DNA of 64,000 nucleotides, taken from positions 85,160-149,159 of the forward strand of contig DASRHC010000004.1 in the NCBI GenBank assembly GCA_035650715.1, given 5' to 3'. This document shows positions 16,414 through 35,067 of the stretch, piece after piece. A program made the position numbers and the translations under genes. The stretch comes from Candidatus Methylomirabilota bacterium (lineage in GTDB: Bacteria > Methylomirabilota > Methylomirabilia > Rokubacteriales > CSP1-6). The notes under the pieces were generated by a model. That model ran no database searches. It saw nothing but the letters and a program-made list of their open reading frames with translations, and was not told the DNA's origin. Positions within the stretch are counted from its first letter, which is position 1. The number at the start of each line of letters is the position of its first letter.

Positions 16414-16968
16414 CTAGATCTTGAAGCGCGCGCGGATCTCGTCGGGCCGCTCCGAGTAGGGCGGGATCGCCTCCCGGGGATCGAACGCGATTTCCACCAC
16501 GATCGCGGCGGGACTTCCCGCCCGGCGGGCGGCGGCGAGGGCCTCGCGCAGCGCGGCCGGATCGCCCACGGTGGCGACGTGGCGCAGGCCCGCAGCCCGC
16601 GCCAGCCCGGGCCAGTCCACCGCCACCGGCGGCAGCGCCTGCCCGCCGGAGGACTCGTAGCGCCCGTTCACCCAGAGCAGCACCGTGAGGTTCGGCGGGG
16701 CCGCCGCGGCCACGGTGGCGAGCACGTTGGGGCTCATCAACAGGGAGCCGTCGCCCTCCAGGGCCACCACGTGGCGGTCCGGCCGCTGGAGCGCCACGCC
16801 CAGCGCCAGGGGAATCGCCGCGCCCATCGAGTCGCAGAGCGCGAACACCGGGCACGGCACCGTCATGTGCGGCAGGTAGCGCGCGTTCGCGCCGAGGCAG
16901 GAGATCAGCACGTCGGTCGGCGTCAGCGTCGCGACCAGCGCGTCCAGCAGCGGCTTGCGTGGCGTCAC
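16414..16968 (-). CDS. Sulfopyruvate/phosphonopyruvate-decarboxylase-like TPP enzyme, beta subunit (PP-binding domain)
   Basis: GTG start overlaps the alpha-subunit stop (GTGA). Has the TPP-binding motif ALEGDGSLLMSPNVLATVA. Confidence 0.75.
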   Translation of the reverse strand: MTPRKPLLDALVATLTPTDVLISCLGANARYLPHMTVPCPVFALCDSMGAAIPLALGVALQRPDRHVVALEGDGSLLMSPNVLATVAAAAPPNLTVLLWVNGRYESSGGQALPPVAVDWPGLARAAGLRHVATVGDPAALREALAAARRAGSPAAIVVEIAFDPREAIPPYSERPDEIRARFKI

Positions 16969-17455
16969 GCGAGATCCTCCCCGCTGATCAGCAGCACGAA
17001 GGGCCCGCGCGATTCCACGCAGAACTCGACGCCCTGCTTCACCTGCCCCGCCAGATCGCCGCGCCGGTCGGCGTGGGCGTGGGGCAGCCGCCAGGCCCGC
17101 AGCGTCTCCTCGGTGACCCGCCCCTTGGGGGCGTGGTAGTAGACCGGGTCGCGATGGTCCCCGCGCAGCGACACGATGAAGAAGCACGGCAGCCGGTAGA
17201 GCTCGACCAGGCCCGCCAGCACCCCGCCGCAGTTGAGCAGGCCCGCGTTCTGGATCAGCACCGCGCCGCGCCCGCCGGCCAGGTTGGCGCCGCACGCGAC
17301 CGCGACCGCCTCCTCCTCCCGGGCCACGTCGACCGCCCGCAGCCGGGGCGAGCGCCGCACACCCTCCATCAGCCGGCCGATCCAGGTGTCCGGCACCGAG
17401 GCCACCAGCGTGACCCCGGCGGCCTCGAGCCCGGACACGATCTGCTCCACGCCCG

Positions 17456-17459
<4 letters not shown>
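16965..17459 (-). CDS. Sulfopyruvate/phosphonopyruvate-decarboxylase-like TPP enzyme, alpha subunit (Pyr domain)
   Basis: 164 aa, MTGVEQIVSGLEAAGVTLVASVPDTWIGRLMEG. Pairs with the beta subunit, ComD/ComE-like. Confidence 0.75.
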
Positions 17460-18535
<1,076 letters not shown>

Positions 18536-18562: not shown

Positions 18563-19339
18563 TCAGCCGCGATGGTGGAGGAACACGCCCCCCAGGTCGA
18601 GGAAGCGGTCGGCGAGCCAGACCACCACGAACGTCACCACGATGAACAGGGTGGAGAGCGCGGCGATGGTGGGATCGGTGTAGTTCACCACGTAGGTGAA
18701 CATGGCCACCGGCAGGATCTCGGTGAGCCGCGTCGAGATGAACAGCGAGACCACGAACTCGTTCAGCGACACGATCACCGCGAACAGCAGCGCCGCCACG
18801 AGCCCGGGGCGGAGCAGCGGCAGGGTCACGCGGCGGAAGGCGCGCCACGGGGTGGCGCCCAGGCTGGCCGCGGCGCGCTCGAGGGTGGGATCGAGGTTGC
18901 GCGCGCTCACCCACACCGAGCGCACCACGAAGGGCAGCACCAGCGCCACGTGGGCCGCGATCAGCACCACCCGGCTCCGGAGGAGGCCGAGCGCGGCGCC
19001 CAGGATGAGGAAGCCGAGGCCGGCGGCCACGCCGGGCACCACCAGCGGCGACAGCAGCACGGTGGACCAGAGCGACGTCCCGCGCCGGCCCCGGGCCAGC
19101 GCGAGCGCGGCCGCGGTGCCGACCGGCATCGCCACCGCCACCGCGCCGAGGGTGACCACCAGGCTGTTCCACATCGCGCGCTGGAACTGCGGGTACGTGA
19201 GCACGTTGACGTACCAGCGCCACGAGAACCCGCTCGGGGGAAACGACAGGATGGCGGTCGGGTTGAACGATACCGCGATCACCACCACCGTGGGCAGGGT
19301 CATGAACGCGACCAGCAGGAGCACCGCGAGGCGGAGCAT
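18563..19339 (-). CDS. ABC transporter permease (PotC-like)
   Basis: Starts MLRLAVLLLVAF inside ORF 18563..19963. Six TM helices. Its ATG overlaps the upstream permease stop. Confidence 0.85.
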   Translation of the reverse strand: MLRLAVLLLVAFMTLPTVVVIAVSFNPTAILSFPPSGFSWRWYVNVLTYPQFQRAMWNSLVVTLGAVAVAMPVGTAAALALARGRRGTSLWSTVLLSPLVVPGVAAGLGFLILGAALGLLRSRVVLIAAHVALVLPFVVRSVWVSARNLDPTLERAAASLGATPWRAFRRVTLPLLRPGLVAALLFAVIVSLNEFVVSLFISTRLTEILPVAMFTYVVNYTDPTIAALSTLFIVVTFVVVWLADRFLDLGGVFLHHRG

Positions 19340-20133
19340 CACGCGCTCCGCGCGGGGCCCGCGGTGAGCCGGCCCACCGCGGCCAGCAGCAGCAGCGTCA
19401 CCGCCAGGGCGAAGACCGCGAAGGCCGCCCCGCCCGGCCAGTTGAAGGAGTCGAGCGCCAGGTCCCGCACCACGTTGGCGATCATCTTCACGCGCCCGCC
19501 GCCCAGCAATTCGGGCGTGGCGAAGGCGCTCAGGGTCCAGGCGAAGACGATGACCGAGCCGGAGACGACGCCCGGCATCGACAGGGGCAGGGTCACCCGC
19601 CAGAACACCCGCGCCGGGCTCGCCCCCAGGCTGGCCGCGGCCCGCTCGTAGACCGGATCGATGTGGCTGATGGCGGCCGCCAGCAGCAGGATCATGGTCG
19701 GCATCGAGAAGTGCACCAGCCCCACCAGCACGCCGCGCGCGGTGAACAGCATGGGGATCGGCCAGGTGACCACCGTGTTGCCCAGCACCAGCACCCACGC
19801 GTAGGTGCGCACGATGGCGCCGGTGAAGAACGGCGCCAGCGTGAGCACGAGCAGGATCGAGCGCGCCCGCGCGCTCCGGGTGCGGGCGAGCAGGTAGGCC
19901 ACCGGATAGGAGGCCACGAGGGTGAGCGCGGTGGTGGCCAGGCTCAAAACCACCGTGTCCCACACCGCGCCCAGGTACTGGCGACTCATGATGCCGGTGA
20001 AGTTGGCGAGGGTGAGCCCGCCGGTCTGCAGCGACCCCGGCACGAACTCGAGCACGCTGTAGCGCAGCAGCGCGCCGAGCGCGGCCGCGAACACCGCCAC
20101 CACGAGCACGGCCGGGGTCAGGAGCAGCCGCAT
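19339..20133 (-). CDS. ABC transporter permease (PotB-like)
   Basis: 264 aa hydrophobic protein, MRLLLTPAVLVVAVF. Confidence 0.85.
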   Translation of the reverse strand: MRLLLTPAVLVVAVFAAALGALLRYSVLEFVPGSLQTGGLTLANFTGIMSRQYLGAVWDTVVLSLATTALTLVASYPVAYLLARTRSARARSILLVLTLAPFFTGAIVRTYAWVLVLGNTVVTWPIPMLFTARGVLVGLVHFSMPTMILLLAAAISHIDPVYERAAASLGASPARVFWRVTLPLSMPGVVSGSVIVFAWTLSAFATPELLGGGRVKMIANVVRDLALDSFNWPGGAAFAVFALAVTLLLLAAVGRLTAGPARSA

Positions 20134-20146: not shown

Positions 20147-21172
20147 CTACTTGACGATGTTGGCGGTGAACCACTCGCGCCAGGCGGGCAGGTTCTTGGC
20201 GCGGACCTCGTCGTTCATGATGTAGGCGCCCGCCTTCCACTCGGCCGGGGTCAGGAAGATGCCCGGCTGGCCGTGATAGGCCGCGGGCACCGTGGCTCCG
20301 CCGTTGACCGGGCCCGCCTTGAGCGCCTTGGCCAGCTCGGTCTGGATCTCCCTGGAGAGCGCCAGGTTGATGAACTGGTGCGCGGCGTCCGCCTTCGCGC
20401 TGCCCGCCATGACCGACATGCAGTCGATGCCCACGATGCCGGGGAAGTCCTTGGTCGCCACCAGCTTCACCTGGATCCCCTGCTCCTGCAGGTGATAGGC
20501 GTTGACCGAGAGCATCACCTGCACCGGCGCCTGCCCGGTCTTCATCAGGTCCTGGCTCTGGGCGTCGGTGGAGTAGAACGCGGCGATGCTCGGCTTGAGC
20601 GCCTTGAGCTTGTCCTGCCCCTTCTGCCACGTCGCCTCGTTGCCTCCCTCCATCAGGGCCGCGATCGTGATGATGTGGGAGGGGTCGAAGTCGGGCATCG
20701 CGATCTTGCCCTTGAGCGAGGGCTTCCACAGATCGGACCAGCGGGTGATCTCCTCCTTCACGAGATCCGGCCGGTAGACGATCGTGTACACGTAGCTCCA
20801 GCCGCCGATCTGGTAGTCGCTGCGCAGCGCCTCCCTGGCGACCTCCTTGGCGTTGGGCAGCTTGGCCATGTCGAGCTTGGCGAAGAGGCCGTCCGACATG
20901 TAGAGGCGGCCGACGTGGCTGGTGGTGAACGTGAGGTCGACCAGCGGGCTGCCCTTGGCCACCCGGGCCTTGGCGAGCCGGTCGATGGTGCCGCCCACCT
21001 CGAACTCCACCGGCATGCCGGTCTTGGCGGTGAACGCCTTGCCGATCACCTTCTCCACCGTGTCCTTCCAGTTGCCGCCCCACACGCTGACCACCAGCGA
21101 GTTCTGGGCGTGGGCGGGCGTGACCCCGAGCCCGAGCGCGAGCAGTGATGCCACGACGAGGCGAGCGAGCAT
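20147..21172 (-). CDS. ABC transporter periplasmic substrate-binding protein (PotD/PotF family)
   Basis: 341 aa with a signal peptide and an SBP fold. Confidence 0.85.
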   Translation of the reverse strand: MLARLVVASLLALGLGVTPAHAQNSLVVSVWGGNWKDTVEKVIGKAFTAKTGMPVEFEVGGTIDRLAKARVAKGSPLVDLTFTTSHVGRLYMSDGLFAKLDMAKLPNAKEVAREALRSDYQIGGWSYVYTIVYRPDLVKEEITRWSDLWKPSLKGKIAMPDFDPSHIITIAALMEGGNEATWQKGQDKLKALKPSIAAFYSTDAQSQDLMKTGQAPVQVMLSVNAYHLQEQGIQVKLVATKDFPGIVGIDCMSVMAGSAKADAAHQFINLALSREIQTELAKALKAGPVNGGATVPAAYHGQPGIFLTPAEWKAGAYIMNDEVRAKNLPAWREWFTANIVK

Positions 21173-21182: not shown

Positions 21183-21674
21183 CTATGGCCTGCGGGGTGG
21201 GGGCGGCGCGAGGGCCCTGGCGGCCGCCTCGATGGCCTCGACGATGAAGTGGTAGCCGGTGCAGCGGCACAGGTGCCCGGCCAGCATCTCGCGGATCTCC
21301 TCGCGCGAGGGCTGCGGCCGCTCGCGGAGGAACGCGCAGGTGCTCATGACGATGCCCGGCGTGCAGTAGCCGCACTGCAGCCCGTGCCTGGCCCAGAACG
21401 CTTCCTGGATCGGGTGCAGCCCGCCGTCGGCGGGCGCCACCCCCTCGATGGTGGTGATCCGGTGCCCGTCGGCCTGCACCGCGAGCATCAGGCAGGCGCG
21501 GACCGGCTCGTCGTCCAGCAGGACGGTGCACGCGCCGCACACCCCGTGCTCGCAGCCCACGTGGGTGCCGGTCAGGTCCAGGTCCTCGCGCAGGAAGTCG
21601 GCCAGCGTCTGGCGCGGCTCCACCGCGCGCGCGTGCTCCTGCCCGTTGACGGTGACGCGGATCGAGTGGGTCAT
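21183..21674 (-). CDS. Molybdenum hydroxylase small subunit, 2Fe-2S binding (CoxS/CutS-like)
   Basis: Starts MTHSIRVTVNGQ inside ORF 21183..22292. Cysteine motifs CEHGVCGACTV and CGYCTPG. Confidence 0.85.
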   Translation of the reverse strand: MTHSIRVTVNGQEHARAVEPRQTLADFLREDLDLTGTHVGCEHGVCGACTVLLDDEPVRACLMLAVQADGHRITTIEGVAPADGGLHPIQEAFWARHGLQCGYCTPGIVMSTCAFLRERPQPSREEIREMLAGHLCRCTGYHFIVEAIEAAARALAPPPPRRP

Positions 21675-22540
21675 CGGGGGCCTCCGCAGCGGCCGAGCGC
21701 CGCGGTCAGCGTGCGCTCGGCCAGCGTGGCCGCCACCCGGCGGCGATAGGCCGCGGTCGCGTGGATGTCGCCGTCCGGCGAGAGCCCGGCGGCGGCCGCC
21801 CGCGCCGCCTCCCGGATCCGCTCCGGGGTCGGGGCTTGGCCGGTCAGCGCCTGCTCCGCGGCGGTGGCGCGCACCGGCGTGCCGCCCGCCCCGAAGAAGG
21901 CGAGCCGCGCCGGGCCGAGCGTGCCGTTTCCATCGCGCGCGAGCACCGCCACCGCGCCCACCAGGGCGAAGTCGCCGTGGCGGCGCGAGACCTCCGCGAA
22001 GCCCCAGCCGGCCCCGGCGGGCGGCAGCGTGAAGCGCACCGCGGTCGCCAGCTCGTCGGGCCCCAGCGCGGTGGTGAGCGGGGCGCGGTAGAACCGGTCG
22101 GCCGGGATCATGCGCTCGCCGCGCGGCCCGCGCGCGACCACCACGCCCTCCAGGCACAGGAGCACCGCGGGCAGCTCGGAGGCCGGATCGGCGTGGACCA
22201 CGTTGCCCACCACCGTGCCCCGGTTCCGGATGGGCGGATGCGCCACGTGCCGGAGCACCTCCGCGAAGAGCGGCGAGCGGGAAACGGCCCACCGCTCGAG
22301 CGCACGCTGCCGCACCAGCGCGCCGATCTCGAGCATGCCGGAGGCTTCGCGGATGCCGTCCAGGCCCGGCAGCCGGTTGATGTCCACCAGCAGCGTGGGT
22401 CGCGCCAGGCGCAGCGCCAGCATCGGGATCAGGCTCTGGCCGCCGGCCAGGACCTTGGCGTCCCCCCCGCCGCCCGCGAGGGCGCCCACCGCCTCGTCGA
22501 GACTCCGCGGGGCCGCGTACTCGAACGGGGCGGGCTTCAC
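21671..22540 (-). CDS. Molybdenum hydroxylase FAD-binding medium subunit (CoxM/CutM-like)
   Basis: 289 aa: AGGQSLIPML, and a CO-dehydrogenase flavoprotein-like fold. Confidence 0.85.
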   Translation of the reverse strand: MKPAPFEYAAPRSLDEAVGALAGGGGDAKVLAGGQSLIPMLALRLARPTLLVDINRLPGLDGIREASGMLEIGALVRQRALERWAVSRSPLFAEVLRHVAHPPIRNRGTVVGNVVHADPASELPAVLLCLEGVVVARGPRGERMIPADRFYRAPLTTALGPDELATAVRFTLPPAGAGWGFAEVSRRHGDFALVGAVAVLARDGNGTLGPARLAFFGAGGTPVRATAAEQALTGQAPTPERIREAARAAAAGLSPDGDIHATAAYRRRVAATLAERTLTAALGRCGGPR

Positions 22541-24873
22541 GACTCCCCCAGGAGGCCCAGCACCACCGACGGGCCGAGCGGCGTCCGCGTGACCTTGGCG
22601 CCGAACGAGGCGAGGGCGTCCTCCACCGCGTTGGCGATGGCGGCGGGCGGCGAGATGGCCCCGCCCTCCCCGATGCCCTTCATGCCGAGCGGATTGCGCG
22701 GCGACGGATATTCGAGGTGCACGGTCTCGATGTCGGGCAGCTCCATCGCGGTGGGGACCAGGTAGTCCATGAACGTGCCGGTCAGCAGCTGGGCCTGCTC
22801 GTCGTACACCATCTCCTCGAGCAGGCCGCCGCCGACGCCCTGCGCGACCCCGCCGTGGATCTGCCCCTCCACGATCACCGGGTTGATGATCTTGCCGCAG
22901 TCGTGCGCGACCAGGTAGCGCCGCAGCGTGACCGCCCCGGTGCCGGTGTCGACGTCCACCACCGCCACGTGGACCGCGCTGGTGTAGGTCACGGTGGGCT
23001 GGTGGTGGTACACCGTCGCCTCGAAGTCGAGCTCGGTCACTCCGGGCCTGGCGAAGGTCGGCGTCGCGGCGCGGATGACCGCGGCGAGCGGCGTGGCCGA
23101 CCCGGGCGCGCCGCGCACCGACACGGCGCCGTCGCTCACCTCGATGTCGGCGGGCGACGCCTCCAGGAGCGCGGCGGCCGCGGCCACGATCTTGTCCCTC
23201 ACGCGGCCGGAGGCCTCGTGGATCGAGCTGCCCGCGTTGACCGCGCTGCGCGAGGCGAACGTCCCGACCCCGAACGGGATCGCCGCGGTGTCACCGCCCA
23301 CCACCGTGACCCACTCGAGCGGGATCCCGAGGGCGTCGGCCGCGATCTGGGCAAACGAGGTCTCGTGCCCCTGCCCCTGGCAGCAGGCGCCGGTGGCCAC
23401 CACCGCGTGCCCCGAGGGATCCAGGCGCACGGTCGCGCCCTCGTAGGGGCCGATCGCCGTGCCCTCCACGTACCCCGAGATGCCGATCCCGCGATGGATG
23501 CCCTGCTCGCGCAGGCGCGCCTGCTCCGCGCGCAGGGCCGGATAGTCCACCGCGGCGAGCGCGGCCTCCAGCCCGGCGCGGAAGTCGCCGCTGTCGTAGA
23601 CGAGCGGGTTGCCGTCGCGGTACGGGATGTGGAGCTCGTACGGCATGTCGGCCTCGGTGAGGTAGTTGCGCCGGCGCAGGTCGGCGGGGTCCATGCCGAG
23701 CGCGCGCGCGAGACGGTCGACGATGCGGTCCATCGCGAACACGGTCTCCGGCCGGCCCGCCCCGCGGTAGGGCGCGTTCGGGGTCTTGGTGGTGACCACG
23801 CCGAGGCACTCCACGTCGAGGCTCGGCACCCGGTGCGGGCCCAGCAGGTGCGCCACCGTGTTGTACGGCAGCACGATGCCCCACGAGTTGTAGGCCCCGA
23901 GGTCCACCCAGATGCGGTCCCGTACCGCGAGCATGGTGCCGTCGCGCCGGGCCCCGATCTCGATGTCGTGCACCTGCGCGCGGGCGTGGGCGGATCCCAT
24001 CATGTGCTCGCGGCGGTCCTCGATCCACTTCACCGGGCGGCGCGAGGCGATGGCCGCGGCCGGGATCAGTAGATCTTCCGGGTACCCGTTGGCCTTGGTG
24101 CCGAACCCGCCGCCCACGTCCGGGGCGATCACCCGGATCTTGTGGGGCGGCAGGCCGAGCGCGGCGACCAGCCCCTGCTGGACGAAGTGCACCACCTGGG
24201 TGCCGTTCCAGGAGGTGAGCGTGCCGTCGCGCGGGTCCCACTGCGCGATCACCCCGCGCGTCTCGATCGGCATGCCGACGTAGCGCGGGATCGTGAACCG
24301 CTCACGCACCCGGACATGGGCCTCCCGCAATCCGGCCTCCGCGTCGCCGAACCCGGTCCGGAACGAGAGCGCGATGTTGTCGCCCCACTCCGGGTAGAGC
24401 ACCGGGGCGTCCGGCTGCGCCGCCGCGATCACGTCCGCCAGCACCGGCAGCGGCTCGTAGTCCACCTGCACCCGCTCCGCGGCGTCCTCGGCCAGCGCGC
24501 GGCTGCCGGCCAGCACCATGGCCACGATCTCGCCGACGTGCCGCACCTCGTCGCGGCACATCGCCAGCTGGCCGACCTGCCTCATCGTCACCGCCACCCG
24601 GGCGGAGAGGCCGGGCGGGATCGCCCCGAAGAGCGGCAGCGGCTTCATCCATCGCTCGAGGTCCGCGAAGGTGTAGACGTGGGCCACCCCGGGCAGGGCG
24701 CGAGCCGGCTCGGTGCGGATCGCGGTGATGCGCGCGTGCGCGTACGGGCTGCGCACGAAGGCGGCGTGCAGCATGCCGGGCAGCTTGATGTCGTCCACGA
24801 AGCGGCCCTCGCCACGGAGGTAGCGCGGGTCCTCGCGGCGCCGGACGGAGGCTCCGAAGTACTTGGCGCCCAT
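22537..24873 (-). CDS. Molybdopterin-dependent oxidoreductase large subunit (xanthine dehydrogenase / CoxL family)
   Basis: Starts MGAKYFGASVRRREDPRYLRG with GGGAG 9 nt upstream. Has GGGFG, and an aldehyde-oxidase/XDH-like C-terminus. Confidence 0.85.
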   Translation of the reverse strand: MGAKYFGASVRRREDPRYLRGEGRFVDDIKLPGMLHAAFVRSPYAHARITAIRTEPARALPGVAHVYTFADLERWMKPLPLFGAIPPGLSARVAVTMRQVGQLAMCRDEVRHVGEIVAMVLAGSRALAEDAAERVQVDYEPLPVLADVIAAAQPDAPVLYPEWGDNIALSFRTGFGDAEAGLREAHVRVRERFTIPRYVGMPIETRGVIAQWDPRDGTLTSWNGTQVVHFVQQGLVAALGLPPHKIRVIAPDVGGGFGTKANGYPEDLLIPAAAIASRRPVKWIEDRREHMMGSAHARAQVHDIEIGARRDGTMLAVRDRIWVDLGAYNSWGIVLPYNTVAHLLGPHRVPSLDVECLGVVTTKTPNAPYRGAGRPETVFAMDRIVDRLARALGMDPADLRRRNYLTEADMPYELHIPYRDGNPLVYDSGDFRAGLEAALAAVDYPALRAEQARLREQGIHRGIGISGYVEGTAIGPYEGATVRLDPSGHAVVATGACCQGQGHETSFAQIAADALGIPLEWVTVVGGDTAAIPFGVGTFASRSAVNAGSSIHEASGRVRDKIVAAAAALLEASPADIEVSDGAVSVRGAPGSATPLAAVIRAATPTFARPGVTELDFEATVYHHQPTVTYTSAVHVAVVDVDTGTGAVTLRRYLVAHDCGKIINPVIVEGQIHGGVAQGVGGGLLEEMVYDEQAQLLTGTFMDYLVPTAMELPDIETVHLEYPSPRNPLGMKGIGEGGAISPPAAIANAVEDALASFGAKVTRTPLGPSVVLGLLGES

Positions 24874-24926
24874 GTCAGTGGTCTCCCCGGTGGTGGTGCG
24901 GCGGTCCACCGTTTAGATCTTCAAGG

Positions 24927-25080: not shown

Positions 25081-25771
<691 letters not shown>

Positions 25772-25785
<14 letters not shown>

Positions 25786-26542
25786 GCGCGCCCGATCCCA
25801 GGTAGGCCCGCACCACCTCGGGGTCCCGCTGCACCGTGGCGGGGTCGCCGTCGGCGATCAGGCGGCCGTAGTTGAGCACCAGCACCCGGTCGGAGATACC
25901 CATGACCAGGCGCATATCGTGCTCGACCAGGAACACGGTGACGCCGCCGTCCCGGATGCGCGCGATCAGCCCGGCCACCGTGGCCTTCTCCGAGGCGGTC
26001 ATCCCGGAGGCCGGCTCGTCGAGCAGCAGGAGCCGCGGCCGCGCCGCGAGCGCGACCGCCAGCTCCAGCAGGCGCTGCTCGCCGTAGGAGAGCCCGCCGG
26101 CGAGCTCGTCGCGGCGGCCGCCCAGCCCCACGAACTCGATCACCCGATCGGCCTCCTCCGCGAGGCGCCGCTCCTCCGCGCGCACCCGTGCGCGGGCCAG
26201 CAGCGCCGCGGCCACCCCGACGCGGCCCTGCAGGTGGAGGCCGGTGAGCACGTTCTCGCGCACGGTGAGCCCGGCAAACACGCTGGTCTTCTGGAACGTG
26301 CGCACCAGGCCGCGCGCCGCGATCCGATGCGGCCGCCAGCCGGTGATCACCTGGCCGTCGTGCCGGACGGTGCCCTGCGTCGGTCGCTGAAAGCCGGTGA
26401 TCACGTTGAACGCGGTGGTCTTCCCCGCGCCGTTGGGGCCGATCAGGCTCGTCACAGTGCCGGGCGCCACCTGGAAGCTCACGCCCGCCAGCGCCGCCAC
26501 GCCACCGAACCGCACGGTGAGGTCCCGGGCCTCGAGGATCAC
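25772..26542 (-). CDS. livG: Branched-chain amino acid ABC transporter ATP-binding protein (LivG type)
   Basis: GTG start overlaps the livM stop (GTGA). Has GPNGAGKTT and LSYGEQRLLELA. Confidence 0.9.
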
Positions 26543-27504
26543 GCGGGGGAAGCGCGCCGGTGGGGCTCGGGCCGGAGCCGGCGCAGGGCCGGCACGATCC
26601 CCTCCGGCAGGAAGAAGAGCACCGCGACCAGCAGGATGCCGTAGAGCAGCATCTGCCACTGCCACGAGGTGGCGGCCCGCAGCGCCTCGGGCAGCACCGT
26701 GAACAGCACCGCGCCCACCACCGGACCCGCGAGGGTGCCCTTGCCGCCGGCCACCACCATGATCACCATCGTGACCGTGTAGGTGAAGAGGAACACTTCC
26801 GGGCTGACGAAGCGCGTGTAGTGGGCGTAGAGGCCGCCCCCGAAGCCGGCCATGGCGGCGCTGATCACCGCGGCCAGCACCAGGTAGTGGGTGCCGTCGA
26901 TGCCCACCGAGGCGGCCAGCGTCTCGTTCTCCCGCAGCGCGACCAGGGCCCGCCCCACCCGCGAGCGGATCAGCGCGAGGCACAGGAGGTACGCGAGCAT
27001 CACCGCAAGGAGCACCACGTAGTAGAACGCGGTCTTGCTGCGCAGCGGCAGCGCGGGCAGCCCGGGCAGCGCGATCTCGAGCGCGGGGACGCCGGGCAGC
27101 CCCAGCGGCCCGTTGGTCAGATCCATCCAGTTCACGCTCACCAGCGACACGCAGCCCGCGAACGAGATCGTGAGCAGCACGAAGTACGCCCCGCGCAGCT
27201 TGAGCGCGAGCCGCCCGATGACCCAGCCCGCCACCCCGGGCAGCACGATGGCGGCCAGGAGCCCGATCCACGGCGAGCAGCCGCCCTTCACGGAGAGCAG
27301 CGCGGTGGCGTAGGCGCCGATGCCGAAGAACGCGGCGTGGCCGAGCGAGAGCTGGCCGGTGTAGCCGAGCAGGAGGTTCAGGCTGAGGGCCAGCACCGCG
27401 AAGATGCCGGCCATGATCAGCGTGTGCAAGTGGTACGGGTTCCACACCCAGAGCGGCGCGGTGACCGCCACCGCGAGGCCGATCACGAACGCGAGCCGCC
27501 TCAT
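26539..27504 (-). CDS. livM: Branched-chain amino acid ABC transporter permease (LivM type)
   Basis: Starts MRRLAFVIGLAVAV inside ORF 26539..28068. Strongly hydrophobic. Confidence 0.85.
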   Translation of the reverse strand: MRRLAFVIGLAVAVTAPLWVWNPYHLHTLIMAGIFAVLALSLNLLLGYTGQLSLGHAAFFGIGAYATALLSVKGGCSPWIGLLAAIVLPGVAGWVIGRLALKLRGAYFVLLTISFAGCVSLVSVNWMDLTNGPLGLPGVPALEIALPGLPALPLRSKTAFYYVVLLAVMLAYLLCLALIRSRVGRALVALRENETLAASVGIDGTHYLVLAAVISAAMAGFGGGLYAHYTRFVSPEVFLFTYTVTMVIMVVAGGKGTLAGPVVGAVLFTVLPEALRAATSWQWQMLLYGILLVAVLFFLPEGIVPALRRLRPEPHRRASPA

Positions 27505-28373
27505 CCCACCCGCTCCGCGCGCGCGAAAATGCCGGAGGGCCGCAGCAGCAGGACGGCCACGATCATGAGGAAACCGACCGCGTCGCGGTAGCCGGAGGAG
27601 ACGTAGCCCGCGCCCAGCTCCTCGGCCACGCCCAGCACCAGGCCGCCCAGCGCGGCGCCCGCGAAGTTGCCGAGGCCGCCCAGGATCACCACCGAGAAGG
27701 CCTTCAGCGAGGCGAGATCGCCCATCGACGGATAGAGCAGGAACACCGGACCGAGCAGCGCGCCCGCGGCGGCGGCGAGCCCGGCCCCGAACGCGAACGT
27801 GATGGTGTGGATGCGCTCGATGCTCACGCCCATCAGGGCCGCGGTCTCCCGGTCCTGGAAGGTGGCGCGCATGGCGCGCCCGAGCTTGGTGCGCGCCAGC
27901 AGCAGGTGGGCGCCCAGGATCAGGCCCGCGGACACCACGAAGACGAACACCCGTAGCGGCGCCACCGACACCGGGCCAAGCACGAGCGGCTGGGTGGGGA
28001 ACGGGGTGGGCACGCTCCTGGCCACCCCGCCCCAGCCGAGCAGCTCCGCGTTCTGCATGGCGATCCACACCCCGATCATCACCAGCATCACGGTGTCGAT
28101 GGACTGCCCGCGGAGCGGTCGCAGGAGCAGGCGCTCGCAGATCGCGCCCGCGCCGGCGCCGGCCACGATCGCGAGCGGGATCGCCAGGAAGAAGTGGACC
28201 GACGCGAGCGCGAGGGCGGCGAACGCGGCGTAGGCCCCGAGCGTGTAGAACTCGCCGTGGGCGAAGTTCACCACGTTCATGAGGCCGAAGACCAGCGTCA
28301 GGCCGATGCCGAGCAGGCTGTACGTGGCCCCCAGCAGCAGCCCGTTCAGCAGGTGCTGGAGTAGCTGGTCCAA
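27501..28373 (-). CDS. livH: Branched-chain amino acid ABC transporter permease (LivH type)
   Basis: 290 aa, MDQLLQHLLNGLLLGATYSLLGIGLTLVFG. Confidence 0.85.
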   Translation of the reverse strand: MDQLLQHLLNGLLLGATYSLLGIGLTLVFGLMNVVNFAHGEFYTLGAYAAFAALALASVHFFLAIPLAIVAGAGAGAICERLLLRPLRGQSIDTVMLVMIGVWIAMQNAELLGWGGVARSVPTPFPTQPLVLGPVSVAPLRVFVFVVSAGLILGAHLLLARTKLGRAMRATFQDRETAALMGVSIERIHTITFAFGAGLAAAAGALLGPVFLLYPSMGDLASLKAFSVVILGGLGNFAGAALGGLVLGVAEELGAGYVSSGYRDAVGFLMIVAVLLLRPSGIFARAERVG

Positions 28374-28395
28374 GCGCTCGCGATCGTGGCCCGCG

Positions 28396-29568
28396 CTACT
28401 TCTTCACGAACGCGGGAAGCGCGATCTTGCCGTCCTTGACCTGGACGATGAAGATGCTCGGCTTGGACTGGCCGCTCTCCTTGCCGGCCGGGCCGTCCTT
28501 CTCGAACTTGATCGGCCCGTTGAGCCCCATCAGGTTCACCTTCCAGAGCGCCTGCTGCACCGCCTTGGGGTCGGCCTTGCCGGCCACCCGAATGCCCTCG
28601 ACCGCGGTGAGGATGCCGTCGTGACCGCGGAAGCCCTCGGTCAGGCCCTCGAAGGGATGACCGCGCTTGGCCCACTCGTCCACGAACGCCTTCGCGAGCT
28701 TGCCGTCCGGCATCGCCTCGGGGAACCAGGGCAGGAAGAACAGGATGTGGTAGGTGCCCTCCGCGGCCGCGCCGGCCTGCTTGATCAGCTGGCTGGGCGA
28801 CGAGCTGCCGCCGGTGGTGATCACCTTGCGGGTGAGCCGCTGCTCCTGCGCCTGCTTCAGCACCAGGGTGATCTGCTCCACGCTGGTGGTGAGGAACAGG
28901 GTGTCGGCCGAGCCCGCCTTCACCTTGGTGATCTGCGCGTTCATGTCGGTGGCGGCCTGGTCCATGAACTCCACCGCGCCCACCGACGCGCCCGACTTCT
29001 TGAGAAGGTTGCCGAACGCGGTGACCGAGCCGCGGCCCCAGTCGGTGTTGACGGCGAGGAAGTCGGCCTGCTTGATGCCGAAGTCCTTCAGGTACTTCTC
29101 GAGGCCGAGGGCCTCCATCTCGCTCGGGGGGCTGATGCGGAAGATCCAGGGGTTGCCGCTCTTGGTGATGCTGGCCGCGCTCGAGGTCTCCACCACCATC
29201 GGCACGCCGTACTCCTCGAGCTTCGGCATGGCGGCGAGCGTCATCGAGCTGCCCCAGGCCCCCATGATCACCGGCACCTTGTCCCGCACGATCAGCTTCT
29301 CGGCGGCGGTGGCGGCCTCCTTCGGGTCCGACTTGTTGTCCTCGATGAGGAGCTCGATCTTGCGTCCGAGCACGCCGCCCTTGGCGTTGATCCAGTCGCG
29401 CGCGATCTCGGCGCCCATGCGCACGTAGTTGCCGGAGGCCGCCACCGGGCCCGACAGGGGCTCGATCACGCCGATCTTCACCGTCTCCTGCGCCCACGCG
29501 GTGGGAGCGCCGAGGGCGAACAGCACGGCCAGCGCCACGGACAGGGCTCGGATTGCTCGCGTCATCAC
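28396..29568 (-). CDS. Periplasmic substrate-binding protein of the Liv-type ABC transporter (LivK/LivJ family, ligand unknown)
   Basis: 390 aa with signal peptide MMTRAIRALSVALAVLFALGAPTAWA and a type I PBP fold. Confidence 0.85.
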   Translation of the reverse strand: MMTRAIRALSVALAVLFALGAPTAWAQETVKIGVIEPLSGPVAASGNYVRMGAEIARDWINAKGGVLGRKIELLIEDNKSDPKEAATAAEKLIVRDKVPVIMGAWGSSMTLAAMPKLEEYGVPMVVETSSAASITKSGNPWIFRISPPSEMEALGLEKYLKDFGIKQADFLAVNTDWGRGSVTAFGNLLKKSGASVGAVEFMDQAATDMNAQITKVKAGSADTLFLTTSVEQITLVLKQAQEQRLTRKVITTGGSSSPSQLIKQAGAAAEGTYHILFFLPWFPEAMPDGKLAKAFVDEWAKRGHPFEGLTEGFRGHDGILTAVEGIRVAGKADPKAVQQALWKVNLMGLNGPIKFEKDGPAGKESGQSKPSIFIVQVKDGKIALPAFVKK

Positions 29569-29741: not shown

Positions 29742-30437
29742 ATGTCCCCGTCTCGCTCCACCGCCCCGCGGGCGGCGATCGCTCCGCTTCTCCACGAGAG
29801 CCTGGGCGAGCGCGTCTACCGCACCGTGCGCGACCTCATCCTGAGCCAGGTCTTCCCGCCCGGCTCGAAGCTGAACGTGGAGCAGCTCTGCCGCGACCTC
29901 GGGGTGAGCCGGACCCCGGTGTGGGACACCATGCGCCGCCTGGAGAGCGAGGGACTGGTCAACACGGTCGCCCGGCACGGGGTGTTCGTGCTGAACTACG
30001 GCGACGCGCAAATCCGCGACCTCTTCGCGGTGCGCGGGGCCCTCGAGGCCCTCGCGGTGCGGCAGGCCGCCGCCAACCCCGACGCGCGCGCGCTCCTCGA
30101 GCCGGCGATGAAGGAGATGGAGGAGGCGGTGGCGGCGGGCGCGATCGAGCAGTACTCGCGCGCGGCCATCGACTTCCACGACCGCATGCTGATGGCGGCG
30201 CGGAACCAGGTGCTCGGCCGGCTGCTGGAGAACGTCTACGCGCAGATCCTGGTGCTGCGCCTGCGCTCGCTCTACCTGCCCGAGCGTCTCGCGTCGAGCG
30301 TGGCCGAGCACCGCGCACTGTTCGAGGCGGTGGGGGCCGGCGACGGCGAGGGCGGCGAGCGGCTGGCCCGCTCCCACGCCGATCACGTGCTGCAGGACGC
30401 GCTCGAGTTCACGCGCCGGGCCGAGCAGGAGCGGTGA
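29742..30437 (+). CDS. GntR-family transcriptional regulator (FadR/FCD subfamily)
   Basis: 231 aa with an N-terminal wHTH (RVYRTVRDLILSQVFPPGSKLNVEQLCRDLGVSRTPVWDTMRRLESEGLV) and an FCD C-terminal domain. Confidence 0.85.
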   Translation: MSPSRSTAPRAAIAPLLHESLGERVYRTVRDLILSQVFPPGSKLNVEQLCRDLGVSRTPVWDTMRRLESEGLVNTVARHGVFVLNYGDAQIRDLFAVRGALEALAVRQAAANPDARALLEPAMKEMEEAVAAGAIEQYSRAAIDFHDRMLMAARNQVLGRLLENVYAQILVLRLRSLYLPERLASSVAEHRALFEAVGAGDGEGGERLARSHADHVLQDALEFTRRAEQER

Positions 30438-32128: not shown

Positions 32129-32132
32129 CGCC

Positions 32133-34150: not shown

Positions 34151-34908
34151 GCGTGACCGCGAGCGAGCTGCTGGCCGTGATGGGGGCCCGCGAGCTGCGG
34201 GACAACACGACCGTGTTCACGGGAGTGGGCGCACCGATGATGGCCTCGGTGCTCGCCCAGCGCTCGCACGCCCCCGGCCTCACCATGATGGTGGAGGGTG
34301 GGGTCATCGGCCCGATGTGGAAGCCGGGGGAGCTGCCGATCTCCACCAACGAGATGCGCGCGGCGTACCGGGCCCAGGCGCTGCCCGGCATCACCGACGC
34401 CTTCCTGCTCGCCCAGCGCGGCTTCTTCGACGTGGGCTTCATCGGGGGCGCCCAGATCGACCGCCACGGCAACCTCAACACCAGCGCCATCGGCGGCTAC
34501 GCCCGGCCCAAGGTCCGGCTGCCCGGCAGCGGGGGCGCCAACGACATCATCTCGCTCTGTCGCGAGGTGATGATCCTGACCGTGCACGAGAAGCGCCGGT
34601 TCACCGAGCGGGTGGACTTCGTGACCAGCCCCGGCTACCTGGAGGGCGGCGACGCCCGCCGGCGCCACGGCCTGCTCTTCGGCGGCGTCTCCCGCCTGAT
34701 CACCACCCTGGGCATCTTCGGCTTCGACAACGAGGACCACCGCATGGAGGTCCTGGCCCTGCATCCGGGCTGCACCCTCGAGCAGGTCCGCGAGCACACC
34801 GGCTTCGAGGTCCTGGTGAGCCCCAGGCTCACGACGACAAAGCCGCCCACGGACGAGGAGCTCGCCATCCTTCGCATGCTGGACCCAGCGCGCCAGTTCA
34901 TAGGATGA
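34147..34908 (+). CDS. CoA-transferase subunit B
   Basis: GTG start overlaps the subunit A stop (GTGA). Subunit-B-like blocks: GVGAPMMASVLAQ, and GGAQIDRHGNLN. Confidence 0.8.
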   Translation: MSVTASELLAVMGARELRDNTTVFTGVGAPMMASVLAQRSHAPGLTMMVEGGVIGPMWKPGELPISTNEMRAAYRAQALPGITDAFLLAQRGFFDVGFIGGAQIDRHGNLNTSAIGGYARPKVRLPGSGGANDIISLCREVMILTVHEKRRFTERVDFVTSPGYLEGGDARRRHGLLFGGVSRLITTLGIFGFDNEDHRMEVLALHPGCTLEQVREHTGFEVLVSPRLTTTKPPTDEELAILRMLDPARQFIG

Positions 34909-35030: not shown

Positions 35031-35067
35031 AGGAAGCAGACGGTAGCCCGCTTTCGGCGAACAGGAG

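What the first reader, a model, noticed from the sequence alone, without database searches (positions are those of the whole stretch)
16414..17459. Split sulfopyruvate/phosphonopyruvate-decarboxylase-like TPP enzyme in a bacterium, coupled to a Pot-type transporter
The alpha (Pyr-domain, 164 aa) and beta (PP-domain, 184 aa) subunits have GTGA-overlapping genes. They resemble ComD/ComE of coenzyme M biosynthesis and the bacterial sulfolactate/cysteate degradation ComDE. They sit directly downstream of a PotABCD-like ABC transporter. PhnSTUV-type 2-aminoethylphosphonate importers belong to this transporter family, so phosphonate or sulfonate (sulfoacetaldehyde-forming) metabolism is plausible.
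Basis: inference. Interest (0 to 1): 0.5.

Follow-up and report, generated by a model that had tools for sequence, protein, structure and literature searches.

The report
Orphan split thiamine decarboxylase with importer
Two overlapping genes encode a two-subunit thiamine-dependent decarboxylase of an uncharacterised, soil-Rokubacteria-specific clade; it is inherited together with an ABC importer and sits in an operon with a molybdenum oxidase, and nothing found here ties it to sulfonate or phosphonate metabolism.

Summary
Alpha (16965-17459, 164 aa, Pyr domain) and beta (16414-16968, 184 aa, PP domain) overlap by GTGA. Alpha also overlaps the ATPase of a PotDBCA-like ABC importer by ATGA.

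That operon starts with a form-II CoxLMS molybdenum hydroxylase.

The pair belongs to the ComDE/Ppd/RhiEF superfamily but scores below every curated cutoff:
- ComD model: 101 bits (cutoff 148)
- ComE model: 104 bits (cutoff 221.5)
- Ppd model: 62 and 99 bits (cutoff 312.5)

It forms a tight clade (at least 69% identity), almost confined to Rokubacteria MAGs.

In the 41 related genome loci:
- the importer sits immediately upstream of alpha in 21;
- this pairing recurs in relatives at 61% and 41% identity, so it is an ancestral module;
- molybdenum hydroxylases of two paralogous types lie nearby in at least 23.

No Xsc or true PEP mutase was found. No hit to a PhnW/PhnX, SuyAB or sulfolactate-dehydrogenase model appeared among the proteins scanned.

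Best reading: a catabolic 2-oxo-acid (or cyclic 2-imino-acid) decarboxylase whose product is oxidised by the molybdenum enzyme. The substrate is unknown. A LumKL-like heterocycle decarboxylase remains a live rival.

Verdict: moderately interesting, a new variant of a known kind.

The parts
16414..16968 (-). Beta subunit (PP domain, 184 aa) of the split TPP-dependent decarboxylase. GTG start; carries GDG(72-74)...N101 and the YESSGGQ motif.
   Evidence: PF02775 E 1.4e-18. PRK06163 109 bits (cutoff 240), TIGR03846 104 bits (cutoff 221.5), TIGR03297 99 bits (cutoff 312.5). Best PDB match is RhiF 9iz3_B at 50 bits.
16965..17459 (-). Alpha subunit (Pyr domain, 164 aa) of the split TPP-dependent decarboxylase. 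Catalytic Glu is E48.
   Evidence: PF02776 E 1.7e-9. TIGR03845 101 bits (cutoff 148). Best PDB matches are 9u8r_A (50 bits) and RhiE 9iz3_A (36 bits).
17456..18535 (-). ABC transporter ATPase with a TOBE_2 domain (PotA subfamily). Its stop overlaps the alpha start (ATGA).
   Evidence: TIGR01187 potA subfamily 363 bits (cutoff 356). PhnT2 372 bits (cutoff 458).
18563..19342 (-). ABC permease 2 (PotC-like). Start is GTG at 19342 or ATG at 19339.
   Evidence: 77-91% identical in related loci. No Pfam scan of the correct frame was run. The assignment rests on the hydrophobic sequence, the position in the operon, and orthology with called BPD_transp_1 genes in L052 and L055.
19339..20133 (-). ABC permease 1 (PotB-like).
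   Evidence: PF00528. PotB model 133 bits (cutoff 348).
20147..21172 (-). Periplasmic solute-binding protein of the PotD/PotF structural family, with a signal peptide. Ligand unknown.
   Evidence: PF13416. PotD model 60 bits (cutoff 582); PhnS2 41 bits (cutoff 393). Best PDB match is 4edp_A (113 bits, ligand unknown). Only 3 of 9 alignable PotD spermidine contacts are retained.
21183..21674 (-). [2Fe-2S] small subunit (CoxS-like, 163 aa) of the molybdenum hydroxylase.
   Evidence: The orthologue in L001 carries PF00111 and PF01799.
21671..22540 (-). FAD-binding medium subunit (CoxM-like) of the molybdenum hydroxylase.
   Evidence: PF00941, PF03450.
22537..24909 (-). Molybdopterin large subunit (form-II CoxL-like, motif PYRGAGR). 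First gene of the tightly coupled nine-gene block.
   Evidence: PDB matches: M. smegmatis CoxL 536 bits, quinoline 2-oxidoreductase 515 bits, 6-hydroxypseudooxynicotine dehydrogenase 450 bits.
25081..29568 (-). LivKHMGF-type ABC importer directly upstream, on the same strand. It is separated from CoxL by a 171-nt spacer that carries two REP-like repeats. It is conserved upstream of CoxLMS in related loci and is probably part of the same regulon.
29742..30437 (+). GntR/FCD-family regulator, divergent from the Liv-Cox-Pot-alpha-beta strand. Candidate regulator of both divergent gene sets.
   Evidence: one sigma-70-like site at 29705-29733.
31115..36797 (+). Divergent block: 2OG/Fe(II) oxygenase, CysK-like PLP enzyme, two-subunit CoA-transferase, F420-dependent LLM oxidoreductase and PxpA-type lactamase subunit. 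The same block lies next to alpha-beta in a 61%-identical relative (L052).

Best explanation
Shown: the two genes encode the Pyr (alpha) and PP (beta) halves of a heteromeric thiamine-diphosphate enzyme of the ComDE/Ppd/RhiEF superfamily. They are the last two cistrons of a nine-gene, translationally coupled block: form-II CoxL-CoxM-CoxS molybdenum hydroxylase, then a PotD/B/C/A-like ABC importer, then alpha and beta. The pair belongs to a tight clade found almost only in Rokubacteria/Methylomirabilota soil MAGs. That clade is distinct from bona fide sulfopyruvate and phosphonopyruvate decarboxylases.

Inferred mechanism: the importer brings in an organic acid that probably contains nitrogen. 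Either this compound itself, or a 2-oxo acid made from it, is decarboxylated non-oxidatively by alpha-beta with TPP and Mg2+, giving an aldehyde. The 2-oxo acid might be produced by the neighbouring divergent operon (2OG oxygenase plus CysK-like PLP enzyme). The co-translated molybdenum enzyme then oxidises the aldehyde to the carboxylate, filling the role that NAD-dependent aldehyde dehydrogenases fill next to more distant split-TPP relatives. CoA-transferase, acyl-CoA dehydrogenase and hydratase genes nearby would carry the product onward.

The substrate is not identified. The enzyme is catabolic; it is not a coenzyme M or phosphonate biosynthetic enzyme.
For: Anatomy: gene gaps are -4, -4, 10, 13, -4, 27, -4 and -4 nt from CoxL to beta. 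The catalytic Glu and the GDG...N motif are intact.

Family: the best curated models are ComD, ComE, Ppd and PRK06163, all below cutoff. Only two full-length 50%-identity clusters exceed 60% identity to alpha, and the next relatives are at 39-46%.

Distribution: 41 genome loci were found, 33 of them labelled Rokubacteria or Methylomirabilota.

Context:
- PotA lies immediately upstream of alpha in 21 of 41 loci.
- Molybdenum hydroxylase genes lie within the fetched flanks in at least 23 of 41.
- Twelve loci, plus the window, show the full CoxS-PotDBCA-alpha-beta order.
- Three loci have CoxLMS close to alpha-beta without the importer (directly adjacent in L001 and L012).
- One clade has ACAD-alpha-beta-HyuA-HyuB-SDR followed by a PucD/XdhA-like molybdenum enzyme.

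Tree: the importer linkage is basal and was lost secondarily.

Deeper relatives:
- L052 (alpha 61%) has PotD/C/A at 70-77% identity plus the PxpA-LLM-CoA-transferase-PALP-2OG oxygenase block.
- L055/L056 (alpha 41%) have a divergent PotDBCA at 46-52% identity, and no other gene shared with the window was recognised there.
- Armatimonadota L057 (alpha 39%) has PALP-MmgE/PrpD-alpha-beta-CoxM-CoxS...CoxL.

Aldehyde logic: split-TPP relatives at 27-44% identity in Deinococcus, Bradyrhizobium and Ruegeria sit beside NAD aldehyde dehydrogenases, together with an amino-acid dehydrogenase or an aminotransferase. The window CoxL scores 638 bits on the archaeal glyceraldehyde (aldehyde) dehydrogenase alpha model.
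Against: No biochemical data exist for any member of the clade, and no cultured organism carrying it was found. The molybdenum enzyme's nearest solved relatives are a CO dehydrogenase and N-heterocycle hydroxylases (quinoline 2-oxidoreductase, 6-hydroxypseudooxynicotine dehydrogenase), not aldehyde oxidoreductases. This favours the heterocycle rival. An ATP-dependent lactamase recurs near alpha-beta (HyuAB-type or PxpA), and the simple 2-oxo acid to aldehyde to acid scheme does not explain it. No aminotransferase or amino-acid dehydrogenase lies in the operon. In L055/L056 the importer and decarboxylase stand alone. The aldehyde-dehydrogenase contexts come from relatives only 27-44% identical, which may act on other substrates.
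Confidence: 0.45

Rival explanations
1. LumKL-type heterocycle decarboxylase. Alpha-beta would decarboxylate a heteroaromatic or cyclic alpha-imino carboxylic acid (the N=C-COOH motif mimics a 2-oxo acid). The co-transcribed molybdenum hydroxylase would then hydroxylate the freed carbon next to nitrogen, giving a lactam. An ATP-dependent lactamase (HyuAB or PxpA) would open that lactam.
For: LumK/LumL of Nocardioides simplex is a two-subunit TPP enzyme (20 and 23 kDa). It decarboxylates a 3-oxo-quinoxaline-2-carboxylate. The next step there is the xanthine-oxidase-like LumJ, and the cluster carries four transport genes (PMC12746152). In the window, alpha-beta shares an operon with a form-II CoxLMS whose near-top solved relatives include quinoline 2-oxidoreductase (515 bits) and 6-hydroxypseudooxynicotine dehydrogenase (450 bits). 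The link to molybdenum hydroxylases spans two paralogous enzyme types and two phyla. Caprolactamase-like HyuAB or PxpA recurs beside alpha-beta.
Against: LumK/LumL sequences could not be obtained, so no sequence relationship was tested. The window and related loci contain no Rieske or ring-cleavage dioxygenase and no amidohydrolase set typical of N-heterocycle pathways. The recurrent PLP enzyme, MmgE/PrpD and CoA-dependent partners fit aliphatic acid catabolism better. More distant relatives pair with NAD aldehyde dehydrogenases.
Confidence: 0.22
2. Alpha-beta is a bacterial ComDE sulfopyruvate decarboxylase working in sulfolactate or cysteate degradation. It would produce sulfoacetaldehyde from a sulfonate taken up by the importer.
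For: ComD and ComE are among the best-scoring curated models (101 and 104 bits). IMG names close relatives 'sulfopyruvate decarboxylase subunit alpha'. A CysK-like PLP enzyme (weak cysteate-synthase hit, 189 bits, cutoff 600) and an SsuA-family SBP (103 bits, cutoff 163.5) occur elsewhere in the window.
Against: Both subunits fall well below the equivalog cutoffs (148 and 221.5). The 20 nearest alpha relatives tested fall below them too. Xsc is absent: the window's full-length TPP enzyme scores 238 bits and the Type B one 241 bits against a cutoff of 676. No hit naming sulfolactate dehydrogenase, SuyAB, Pta or a sulfite exporter appeared in the window genes scanned. The LLM enzymes are F420-type, not SsuD. 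The conserved partners are molybdenum hydroxylases, a lactamase and acyl-CoA enzymes.
Confidence: 0.08
3. Alpha-beta is a split phosphonopyruvate decarboxylase (RhiEF/AepY-like), and the importer is a PhnSTUV-type 2-aminoethylphosphonate system.
For: RhiF is the best solved match of beta (50 bits). The ATPase scores 372 bits on PhnT2 (cutoff 458). IMG names some beta homologues 'phosphonopyruvate decarboxylase'. A PEP-mutase-superfamily gene lies about 8 kb away.
Against: TIGR03297 gives 62 bits (alpha) and 99 bits (beta) against a cutoff of 312.5. The PEP-mutase-family protein carries the lyase motif KKCGH and scores 305 bits on prpB but only 153 on PEP_mutase (cutoff 320). No ppm lies adjacent in any of the 44 close loci mapped. 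The SBP scores 29-41 bits on PhnS and PhnS2 (cutoffs 393-395). From established knowledge of the pathway, Ppd is a biosynthetic enzyme and has no role in AEP catabolism, which uses PhnW with PhnX or PhnY/PhnA.
Confidence: 0.03
4. Alpha-beta is not primarily a decarboxylase. It could carry out another TPP reaction, such as carboligation (acyloin formation) or C-C cleavage of a 2-hydroxyacyl or diketone substrate.
For: The TPP fold supports many reactions. The nearest solved alpha relative (9u8q/9u8r) comes from an actinomycete secondary-metabolite cluster and has no stated function. Type B loci place a second, full-length ALS-like TPP enzyme beside alpha-beta.
Against: All characterised members of the minimal two-domain split clade (ComDE, RhiEF, LumKL) are simple decarboxylases. 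There is no middle (TH3) domain and no FAD-binding region.
Confidence: 0.08

Closest known systems
ComDE sulfopyruvate decarboxylase (coenzyme M biosynthesis; bacterial sulfolactate degradation)
   Same: Two small subunits, Pyr then PP, with no middle domain and with overlapping genes. ComD and ComE are among the top curated model hits.
   Different: Scores are 101 and 104 bits against cutoffs of 148 and 221.5. There are no com, xsc or suy partner genes. The operon partners are a molybdenum hydroxylase and a Pot-like importer. The clade is restricted to Rokubacteria.
RhiEF / AepY (Ppd) phosphonopyruvate decarboxylase (PDB 9iz3, 9iz4)
   Same: Split alpha/beta architecture (RhiEF). RhiF is the best solved match for beta. 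Both share the ES(S/T)GGQ motif after the TPP-binding loop.
   Different: Only 36 and 50 bits to RhiE and RhiF. The TIGR03297 model is far below cutoff. There is no adjacent PEP mutase. The context is catabolic, not a biosynthetic cluster.
LumK/LumL TPP-dependent quinoxaline-carboxylate decarboxylase of riboflavin/lumichrome catabolism (PMC12746152)
   Same: A two-subunit TPP decarboxylase in a catabolic cluster, next to a xanthine-oxidase-family molybdenum hydroxylase and to transport genes.
   Different: The sequence relationship is untested because the sequences were not obtainable. The Lum cluster also has a P450, amidases and Rieske and catechol dioxygenases, none of which is present here. 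LumJ is a single 140-kDa polypeptide, whereas here the enzyme has three CoxLMS subunits.
Kitasatospora/Streptomyces split TPP enzyme, PDB 9u8q/9u8r/9u8s (function not stated in the entry)
   Same: The best solved match for alpha (50 bits), with the same two-subunit layout.
   Different: It lies in a secondary-metabolite cluster (P450, NRPS A-T, GTP cyclohydrolase I). Its beta subunit has TDGS instead of GDGS.
PotABCD spermidine/putrescine and PhnSTUV 2-AEP ABC importers
   Same: The same four-component architecture. The ATPase passes the potA subfamily model (363 bits, cutoff 356).
   Different: The SBP is far below the PotD, PotF, PhnS and PhnS2 cutoffs. Three of the PotD spermidine contacts are kept (W34, D168, D257), while E171 becomes H, W255 becomes G and W229 becomes L. 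The contact list is recalled from the PotD structure literature.

Membership tests
Split (two-subunit) ComDE/Ppd-type TPP decarboxylase superfamily | Separate Pyr-domain and PP-domain polypeptides of about 160-190 aa, encoded by adjacent genes, with no TH3 middle domain | tested here: met
   164 aa with PF02776 only and 184 aa with PF02775 only; GTGA overlap.
Split (two-subunit) ComDE/Ppd-type TPP decarboxylase superfamily | Cofactor-activating Glu in the Pyr domain, and a GDG-X(24-27)-N metal/diphosphate motif in the PP domain | tested here: met
   E48 aligns with the Glu of RhiE and 9u8r. G72-D73-G74...N101 is present.
Sulfopyruvate decarboxylase ComDE | Scores at or above the curated equivalog cutoffs of TIGR03845 (alpha) and TIGR03846 (beta) | tested here: not met
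   101.3 bits against 147.95, and 104.1 bits against 221.5. The 20 nearest alpha relatives tested are also below cutoff.
Sulfopyruvate decarboxylase ComDE | Genomic association with sulfolactate/sulfoacetaldehyde genes (comABC, slcD, suyAB, xsc, pta, sulfite export) | tested here: not met
   None was recognised among the window genes scanned. The Xsc model gives 238-241 bits against a cutoff of 676. The related loci were mapped only with window-derived and Type B queries.
Sulfopyruvate decarboxylase ComDE | Decarboxylates 3-sulfopyruvate to sulfoacetaldehyde | not testable with these tools
   Needs an enzyme assay.
Phosphonopyruvate decarboxylase (Ppd / AepY / RhiEF) | Score at or above the TIGR03297 cutoff | tested here: not met
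   62.3 bits (alpha) and 99.1 bits (beta) against 312.5.
Phosphonopyruvate decarboxylase (Ppd / AepY / RhiEF) | Encoded next to a PEP phosphomutase | tested here: not met
   The nearest PEP-mutase-family gene (7624-8694) is about 8 kb away. It carries the lyase motif KKCGH and scores 153 bits on TIGR02320 (cutoff 320) but 305 bits on prpB. None lies adjacent in the related loci.
LumKL-type heterocycle decarboxylase | Two-subunit TPP enzyme encoded with a xanthine-oxidase-family molybdenum hydroxylase that acts on its product | tested here: inconclusive
   The gene association is met (same operon; recurrent). The substrate-product relationship is unknown.
LumKL-type heterocycle decarboxylase | Sequence orthology to LumK/LumL of Nocardioides simplex | not testable with these tools
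   No sequences or accessions are given in the paper or its supplement. A cluster look-up of 10 candidates found none.
PotABCD polyamine importer | SBP, two permeases and an ATPase with a TOBE domain | tested here: met
   The ATPase passes the TIGR01187 subfamily cutoff (363.2 against 355.6).
PotABCD polyamine importer | SBP is a PotD/PotF equivalog with the acidic and aromatic polyamine-binding site | tested here: not met
   PotD model 60 bits (cutoff 582) and PotF model 30 bits (cutoff 636). E171 becomes H, W255 becomes G, W229 becomes L and Y37 becomes T in the alignment to E. coli PotD.
PhnSTUV 2-aminoethylphosphonate importer | SBP reaches the PhnS or PhnS2 equivalog cutoffs | tested here: not met
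   PhnS2 41 bits (cutoff 393) and PhnS 29 bits (cutoff 395).
Aerobic CO dehydrogenase (form I CoxL) | Active-site loop VAYRCSFR with the Cu-binding Cys | tested here: not met
   The loop reads NAPYRGAGRPE, which is the form-II signature. TIGR02416 gives 566 bits against a cutoff of 991.

The most novel reading that the evidence does not exclude
The Rokubacterial alpha-beta pair could be a second example of the TPP chemistry first reported in 2025 for LumKL. In this reading it decarboxylates an imported heteroaromatic or cyclic alpha-imino carboxylic acid, priming the ring for hydroxylation by the co-transcribed molybdenum hydroxylase and for ATP-dependent lactam opening. That would define a widespread soil pathway for N-heterocyclic carboxylates in an uncultured phylum.
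Probability: 0.2. Interest if true: 0.65.

Novelty: new variant of a known kind. Interest (0 to 1): 0.4.

Why it matters
Two-subunit TPP decarboxylases were described in 2025 as rare and known only from coenzyme M, rhizocticin and riboflavin pathways (PMC12746152). The search here found 263 distinct 50%-identity clusters related to alpha at E <= 1e-10; some of these are longer, fused proteins. None of the 20 closest relatives tested reaches the ComD cutoff. Automatic KEGG/IMG-style annotation nevertheless labels them 'sulfopyruvate decarboxylase'. That label can create false sulfonate or coenzyme M signals in soil metagenome surveys.

This clade is abundant in Rokubacteria. It has a conserved importer and a molybdenum enzyme as partners, which gives a concrete three-component system (binding protein, decarboxylase, oxidase) for working out the function by ligand screening and enzyme assays.

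Tried and rejected
1. PEP mutase. I tested whether the PEP-mutase-family gene at 7624-8694 is a true Ppm. It is not: it has the KKCGH lyase motif, scores 305 bits on prpB and only 153 on PEP_mutase.

2. Xsc. I tested whether either full-length TPP enzyme is Xsc (window 38656-40308, and the gene beside ACAD in Type B loci). Neither is: 238 and 241 bits against a cutoff of 676.

3. SsuD. I tested whether the luciferase-like enzymes are SsuD-type sulfonate monooxygenases. They are not: both belong to the F420-dependent TIGR03619 family.

4. LumK/LumL sequences. I could not obtain them for a direct comparison. The paper and its supplement give no accession or sequence. A look-up of 10 high-GC candidate clusters found no Nocardioides entry.

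5. PDB 9u8q/9u8r. I suspected these entries might be LumKL. The nearest homologues are from Kitasatospora and Streptomyces and sit in a secondary-metabolite cluster, so the idea was rejected.

6. Cultured hosts. I looked for one among the plasmid and chromid hits. The Burkholderia hit examined (L048) lies inside a 568-aa fused TPP enzyme rather than a split pair. The other hits are only 27-44% identical and sit in different contexts.

7. RNA elements. An Rfam scan of the whole window found no riboswitch (for example TPP) or other RNA family.

8. Promoters and terminators. The scan gave one sigma-70-like site upstream of the GntR gene and nothing informative inside the operon.

9. RhiEF structure paper. 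It is not held in the library, so no residue-level comparison of the substrate pocket was possible.
Full report
**Observation.** The window is 72% GC. On the minus strand, 16965-17459 translates to a 164-aa protein and 16414-16968 to a 184-aa protein. The TGA of the first and the GTG of the second share GTGA at 16965-16968. Pfam finds only TPP_enzyme_N in the first (E 1.7e-9) and only TPP_enzyme_C in the second (E 1.4e-18). Alpha keeps the cofactor-activating glutamate: E48 aligns with the Glu of RhiE and of PDB 9u8r. Beta keeps GDG(72-74)...N101, followed by YESSGGQ as in RhiF. Homologues of identical length exist at up to 89% identity.

**Operon anatomy.** The alpha start overlaps the stop of an ABC ATPase (ATGA at 17456-17459). 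Upstream on the same strand lie:
- a second permease (18563-19342);
- a first permease (19339-20133);
- a signal-peptide-bearing solute-binding protein (20147-21172);
- only 10 nt further up, a three-subunit molybdenum hydroxylase: CoxS-like 21183-21674, CoxM-like 21671-22540 and CoxL-like 22537-24909.

The intergenic distances from CoxL to beta are -4, -4, 10, 13, -4, 27, -4 and -4 nt. These nine genes therefore form one translationally coupled unit.

CoxL carries the form-II loop PYRGAGR rather than the CO-dehydrogenase loop. Its best solved relatives are M. smegmatis CoxL (536 bits), quinoline 2-oxidoreductase (515 bits) and 6-hydroxypseudooxynicotine dehydrogenase (450 bits).

A LivKHMGF-type importer lies further upstream, beyond a 171-nt spacer. 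A GntR/FCD regulator is divergent from it. A divergent block at 31115-36797 encodes a 2OG/Fe(II) oxygenase, a CysK-like PLP enzyme, a two-subunit CoA-transferase, an F420-dependent LLM oxidoreductase and a PxpA lactamase subunit.

**Family placement.** In NCBIfam, alpha scores 101.3 bits on ComD (TIGR03845, cutoff 147.95) and 62.3 on Ppd (TIGR03297, cutoff 312.5). Beta scores 108.6 on PRK06163 (cutoff 240), 104.1 on ComE (TIGR03846, cutoff 221.5) and 99.1 on Ppd. The pair is thus in the ComDE/Ppd superfamily but is not an equivalog of any curated member.

Against solved structures, alpha is closest to 9u8r_A (50 bits) and RhiE (36 bits). Beta is closest to RhiF (50 bits) and 9u8q_G (43 bits). 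RhiEF is the split phosphonopyruvate decarboxylase of rhizocticin biosynthesis (PMC12141560). The nearest homologues of 9u8q/9u8r are from Kitasatospora and Streptomyces and lie in a secondary-metabolite cluster.

An exhaustive search of 1.84 billion 50%-identity representatives with alpha gave 1741 hits at E <= 1e-3 and 263 at E <= 1e-10. Only two full-length clusters exceed 60% identity (79% and 61%), and the next are at 39-46%. Twenty of the nearest relatives were scanned, and none reaches the ComD cutoff; the best scores are 145.9 and 141.2 bits. IMG nevertheless names many of them 'sulfopyruvate decarboxylase'.

**Comparative genomics.** A scan of one genome per GTDB species found 41 loci with beta at 69-89% identity. 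Thirty-three are labelled Rokubacteria or Methylomirabilota. The rest are soil MAGs with other labels. I mapped the neighbours by tblastn.

- The Pot-like ATPase lies immediately upstream of alpha in 21 of 41 loci.
- Twelve of these show the full window order CoxS-PotD-B-C-A-alpha-beta.
- Three loci (L001, L012, L017) have LivKHMGF-CoxLMS with alpha-beta directly or closely downstream and no importer.
- Thirteen have an acyl-CoA dehydrogenase immediately upstream. This 'Type B' order is full-length TPP enzyme, ACAD, alpha, beta, HyuA, HyuB, SDR and then a second molybdenum hydroxylase.
- Mixed forms exist: PotDBCA-alpha-beta followed by the Type B genes (L027, L034, L035, L044).
- Molybdenum hydroxylase genes lie within the fetched flanks in at least 23 of 41 loci.

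The second molybdenum hydroxylase is PucD/XdhA-like and only 32-34% identical to the window CoxL. HyuA and HyuB are caprolactamase-like.

A neighbour-joining tree of concatenated alpha and beta puts Type B in one derived clade and nests the importer-less loci inside importer-bearing ones.

Outgroups also carry the importer:
- L052 (alpha 61%) has PotD/C/A at 70-77% identity. Next to it lies the same PxpA-LLM-CoA-transferase-PLP-2OG oxygenase-LivK block as in the window.
- L055/L056 (alpha 41%) have a divergent PotDBCA at 46-52% identity, and no other gene shared with the window was recognised there.

The importer-decarboxylase pair is therefore an ancestral, co-inherited module. An Armatimonadota relative (alpha 39%) has PALP-MmgE/PrpD-alpha-beta-CoxM-CoxS...CoxL, so the link to molybdenum hydroxylases also crosses phyla.

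**Tests of the sulfonate/phosphonate reading.**
- The PEP-mutase-family protein at 7624-8694 carries the lyase motif KKCGH. It scores 305 bits on methylisocitrate lyase but only 153 on PEP mutase (cutoff 320).
- The full-length TPP enzymes score 238 and 241 bits on Xsc (cutoff 676).
- The SBP scores 41 and 29 bits on PhnS2 and PhnS (cutoffs about 393-395) and 60 on PotD (cutoff 582).
- The LLM enzymes are F420-type, not SsuD.
- No hit naming PhnW/PhnX, SuyAB, sulfolactate dehydrogenase, Pta or a sulfite exporter appeared among the window genes scanned. A few window ORFs were not scanned.
- One SsuA-family SBP, 43 kb away, is below its cutoff.
- From established pathway knowledge, Ppd is a biosynthetic enzyme that normally sits next to PEP mutase and has no role in AEP catabolism.

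The rest of the genome could not be inspected. The refutation condition 'genes absent from the genome' is therefore tested only for the window and the flanks of related loci.

**What it most likely does.** More distant split-TPP pairs (27-44% identity) on plasmids and chromids of cultured bacteria sit beside NAD-dependent aldehyde dehydrogenases and a source of 2-oxo acids:
- Bradyrhizobium: an amino-acid dehydrogenase, an aldehyde dehydrogenase, an ABC importer, MmgE/PrpD and a CoA-transferase.
- Deinococcus: MmgE/PrpD-alpha-beta-PxpA-ACAD-CaiB-MaoC-aldehyde dehydrogenase.
- Ruegeria: an aminotransferase, alpha-beta and an aldehyde dehydrogenase.

These suggest the general logic of 2-oxo acid to aldehyde to acid to acyl-CoA. 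In the Rokubacterial clade, the molybdenum enzyme occupies the place of the aldehyde dehydrogenase. It scores 638 bits on the archaeal molybdenum glyceraldehyde dehydrogenase model. I therefore commit to a catabolic 2-oxo-acid decarboxylase whose aldehyde product is oxidised by CoxLMS, acting on a compound delivered by the Pot-like importer. My confidence in this specific scheme is about 0.45. My confidence in the general statement is about 0.75: a non-ComDE, non-Ppd catabolic decarboxylase functionally tied to the importer and to a molybdenum enzyme.

**Main rival.** In 2025, LumK/LumL of Nocardioides simplex was shown to be a two-subunit TPP enzyme that decarboxylates a quinoxaline-2-carboxylate. 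The next step is a xanthine-oxidase-like hydroxylase, and the cluster carries transport genes (PMC12746152). Three observations fit a sequence of decarboxylation, hydroxylation next to nitrogen, and lactam opening:
- the operon's form-II CoxL resembles N-heterocycle hydroxylases;
- two different molybdenum hydroxylase paralogues partner the same decarboxylase;
- an ATP-dependent lactamase recurs nearby.

Against this, no ring-cleavage dioxygenases or amidase sets are present, and the other partners look aliphatic. LumK/LumL sequences were not obtainable, so the decisive phylogenetic test could not be run.

**The importer.** The ATPase passes the potA subfamily model (363 bits, cutoff 356), but the SBP is not a polyamine-binding protein by model score. 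In the alignment to E. coli PotD it keeps W34, D168 and D257 but has E171H, W255G, W229L, Y37T and S83T. The contact list is recalled from the PotD structure literature. Its best solved relative, 4edp, has no stated ligand. The transported compound is unknown. Two retained aspartates hint at an amino group.

**Verdict.** The sulfonate/phosphonate interpretation is not supported. The feature is an uncharacterised, phylum-restricted variant of the split TPP decarboxylases. It forms a conserved three-part system of importer, decarboxylase and molybdenum oxidase. Interest is moderate (0.4). It would be higher if the LumKL-like chemistry were demonstrated.

Noticed in passing
window 24932-24988, 25004-25060 (+) and 34965-35021 (-): A 57-nt GC-rich hairpin-containing repeat (REP-like) occurs three times. 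Two copies are in tandem between the LivF stop and the CoxL start, and one lies inverted between the CoA-transferase B gene and the F420-LLM gene. None is expected by chance.
   Followed up: partly
window 30440-31107 (+): A short-chain dehydrogenase gene between the GntR regulator and the 2OG oxygenase is split over two reading frames. The N-terminal TGGAAGLG part runs to about 30835, and the C-terminal YxxxK part runs from about 30814. This is either a frameshifted pseudogene or an assembly error.
   Followed up: partly
window 31115-36797 (+); L052 11460-16942: A block of 2OG/Fe(II) oxygenase, CysK-like PLP enzyme (329 bits, cutoff 344), glutaconate-CoA-transferase-sized A/B subunits, F420-dependent LLM oxidoreductase and PxpA lies divergent from the Liv-Cox-Pot-alpha-beta strand. 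It reappears next to alpha-beta in a 61%-identical relative, so it probably belongs to the same pathway.
   Followed up: partly
window 5608-11666: A PEP-mutase/isocitrate-lyase-family lyase (KKCGH motif), LeuCD-like aconitase subunits, an alpha/beta hydrolase, a family-III CoA-transferase and an HpcH/HpaI aldolase form a conserved neighbouring set. It looks like a branched or C5-dicarboxylate catabolic cluster rather than phosphonate metabolism.
   Followed up: partly
window 15790-16377 (+): A 195-aa ORF with coding-like GC3 (0.90) and no Pfam or NCBIfam match converges on the end of beta. It is conserved at 52-64% identity at the same position in Type A loci.
   Followed up: no
L003, L018-L022, L025, L029, L038, L040, L043 (Type B loci): The same decarboxylase (73-79% identity) sits between an acyl-CoA dehydrogenase and a caprolactamase-like HyuA/HyuB pair. 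A PRK08266-type full-length TPP enzyme lies upstream, and an SDR plus a PucD/XdhA-like molybdenum hydroxylase lie downstream. This is a second conserved wiring of the enzyme.
   Followed up: partly
L004, L007, L012, L022, L024, L042: Six of the 41 related loci come from soil MAGs labelled Verrucomicrobiia, Acidoferrum, Limnocylindria, Binatia or Deferrimicrobiaceae, although their genes are 77-87% identical and syntenic to the Rokubacteria loci. Likely causes are mis-binning or mislabelling, or recent transfer.
   Followed up: no
window 41049-44155, 57778-63669: Other genes seen while annotating: a second F420-dependent LLM, a RhaD-like bifunctional aldolase/SDR, a biotin carboxylase (AccC model passed), an SsuA-family SBP below its cutoff, and a benzoate-CoA-ligase-family enzyme.
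   Followed up: no
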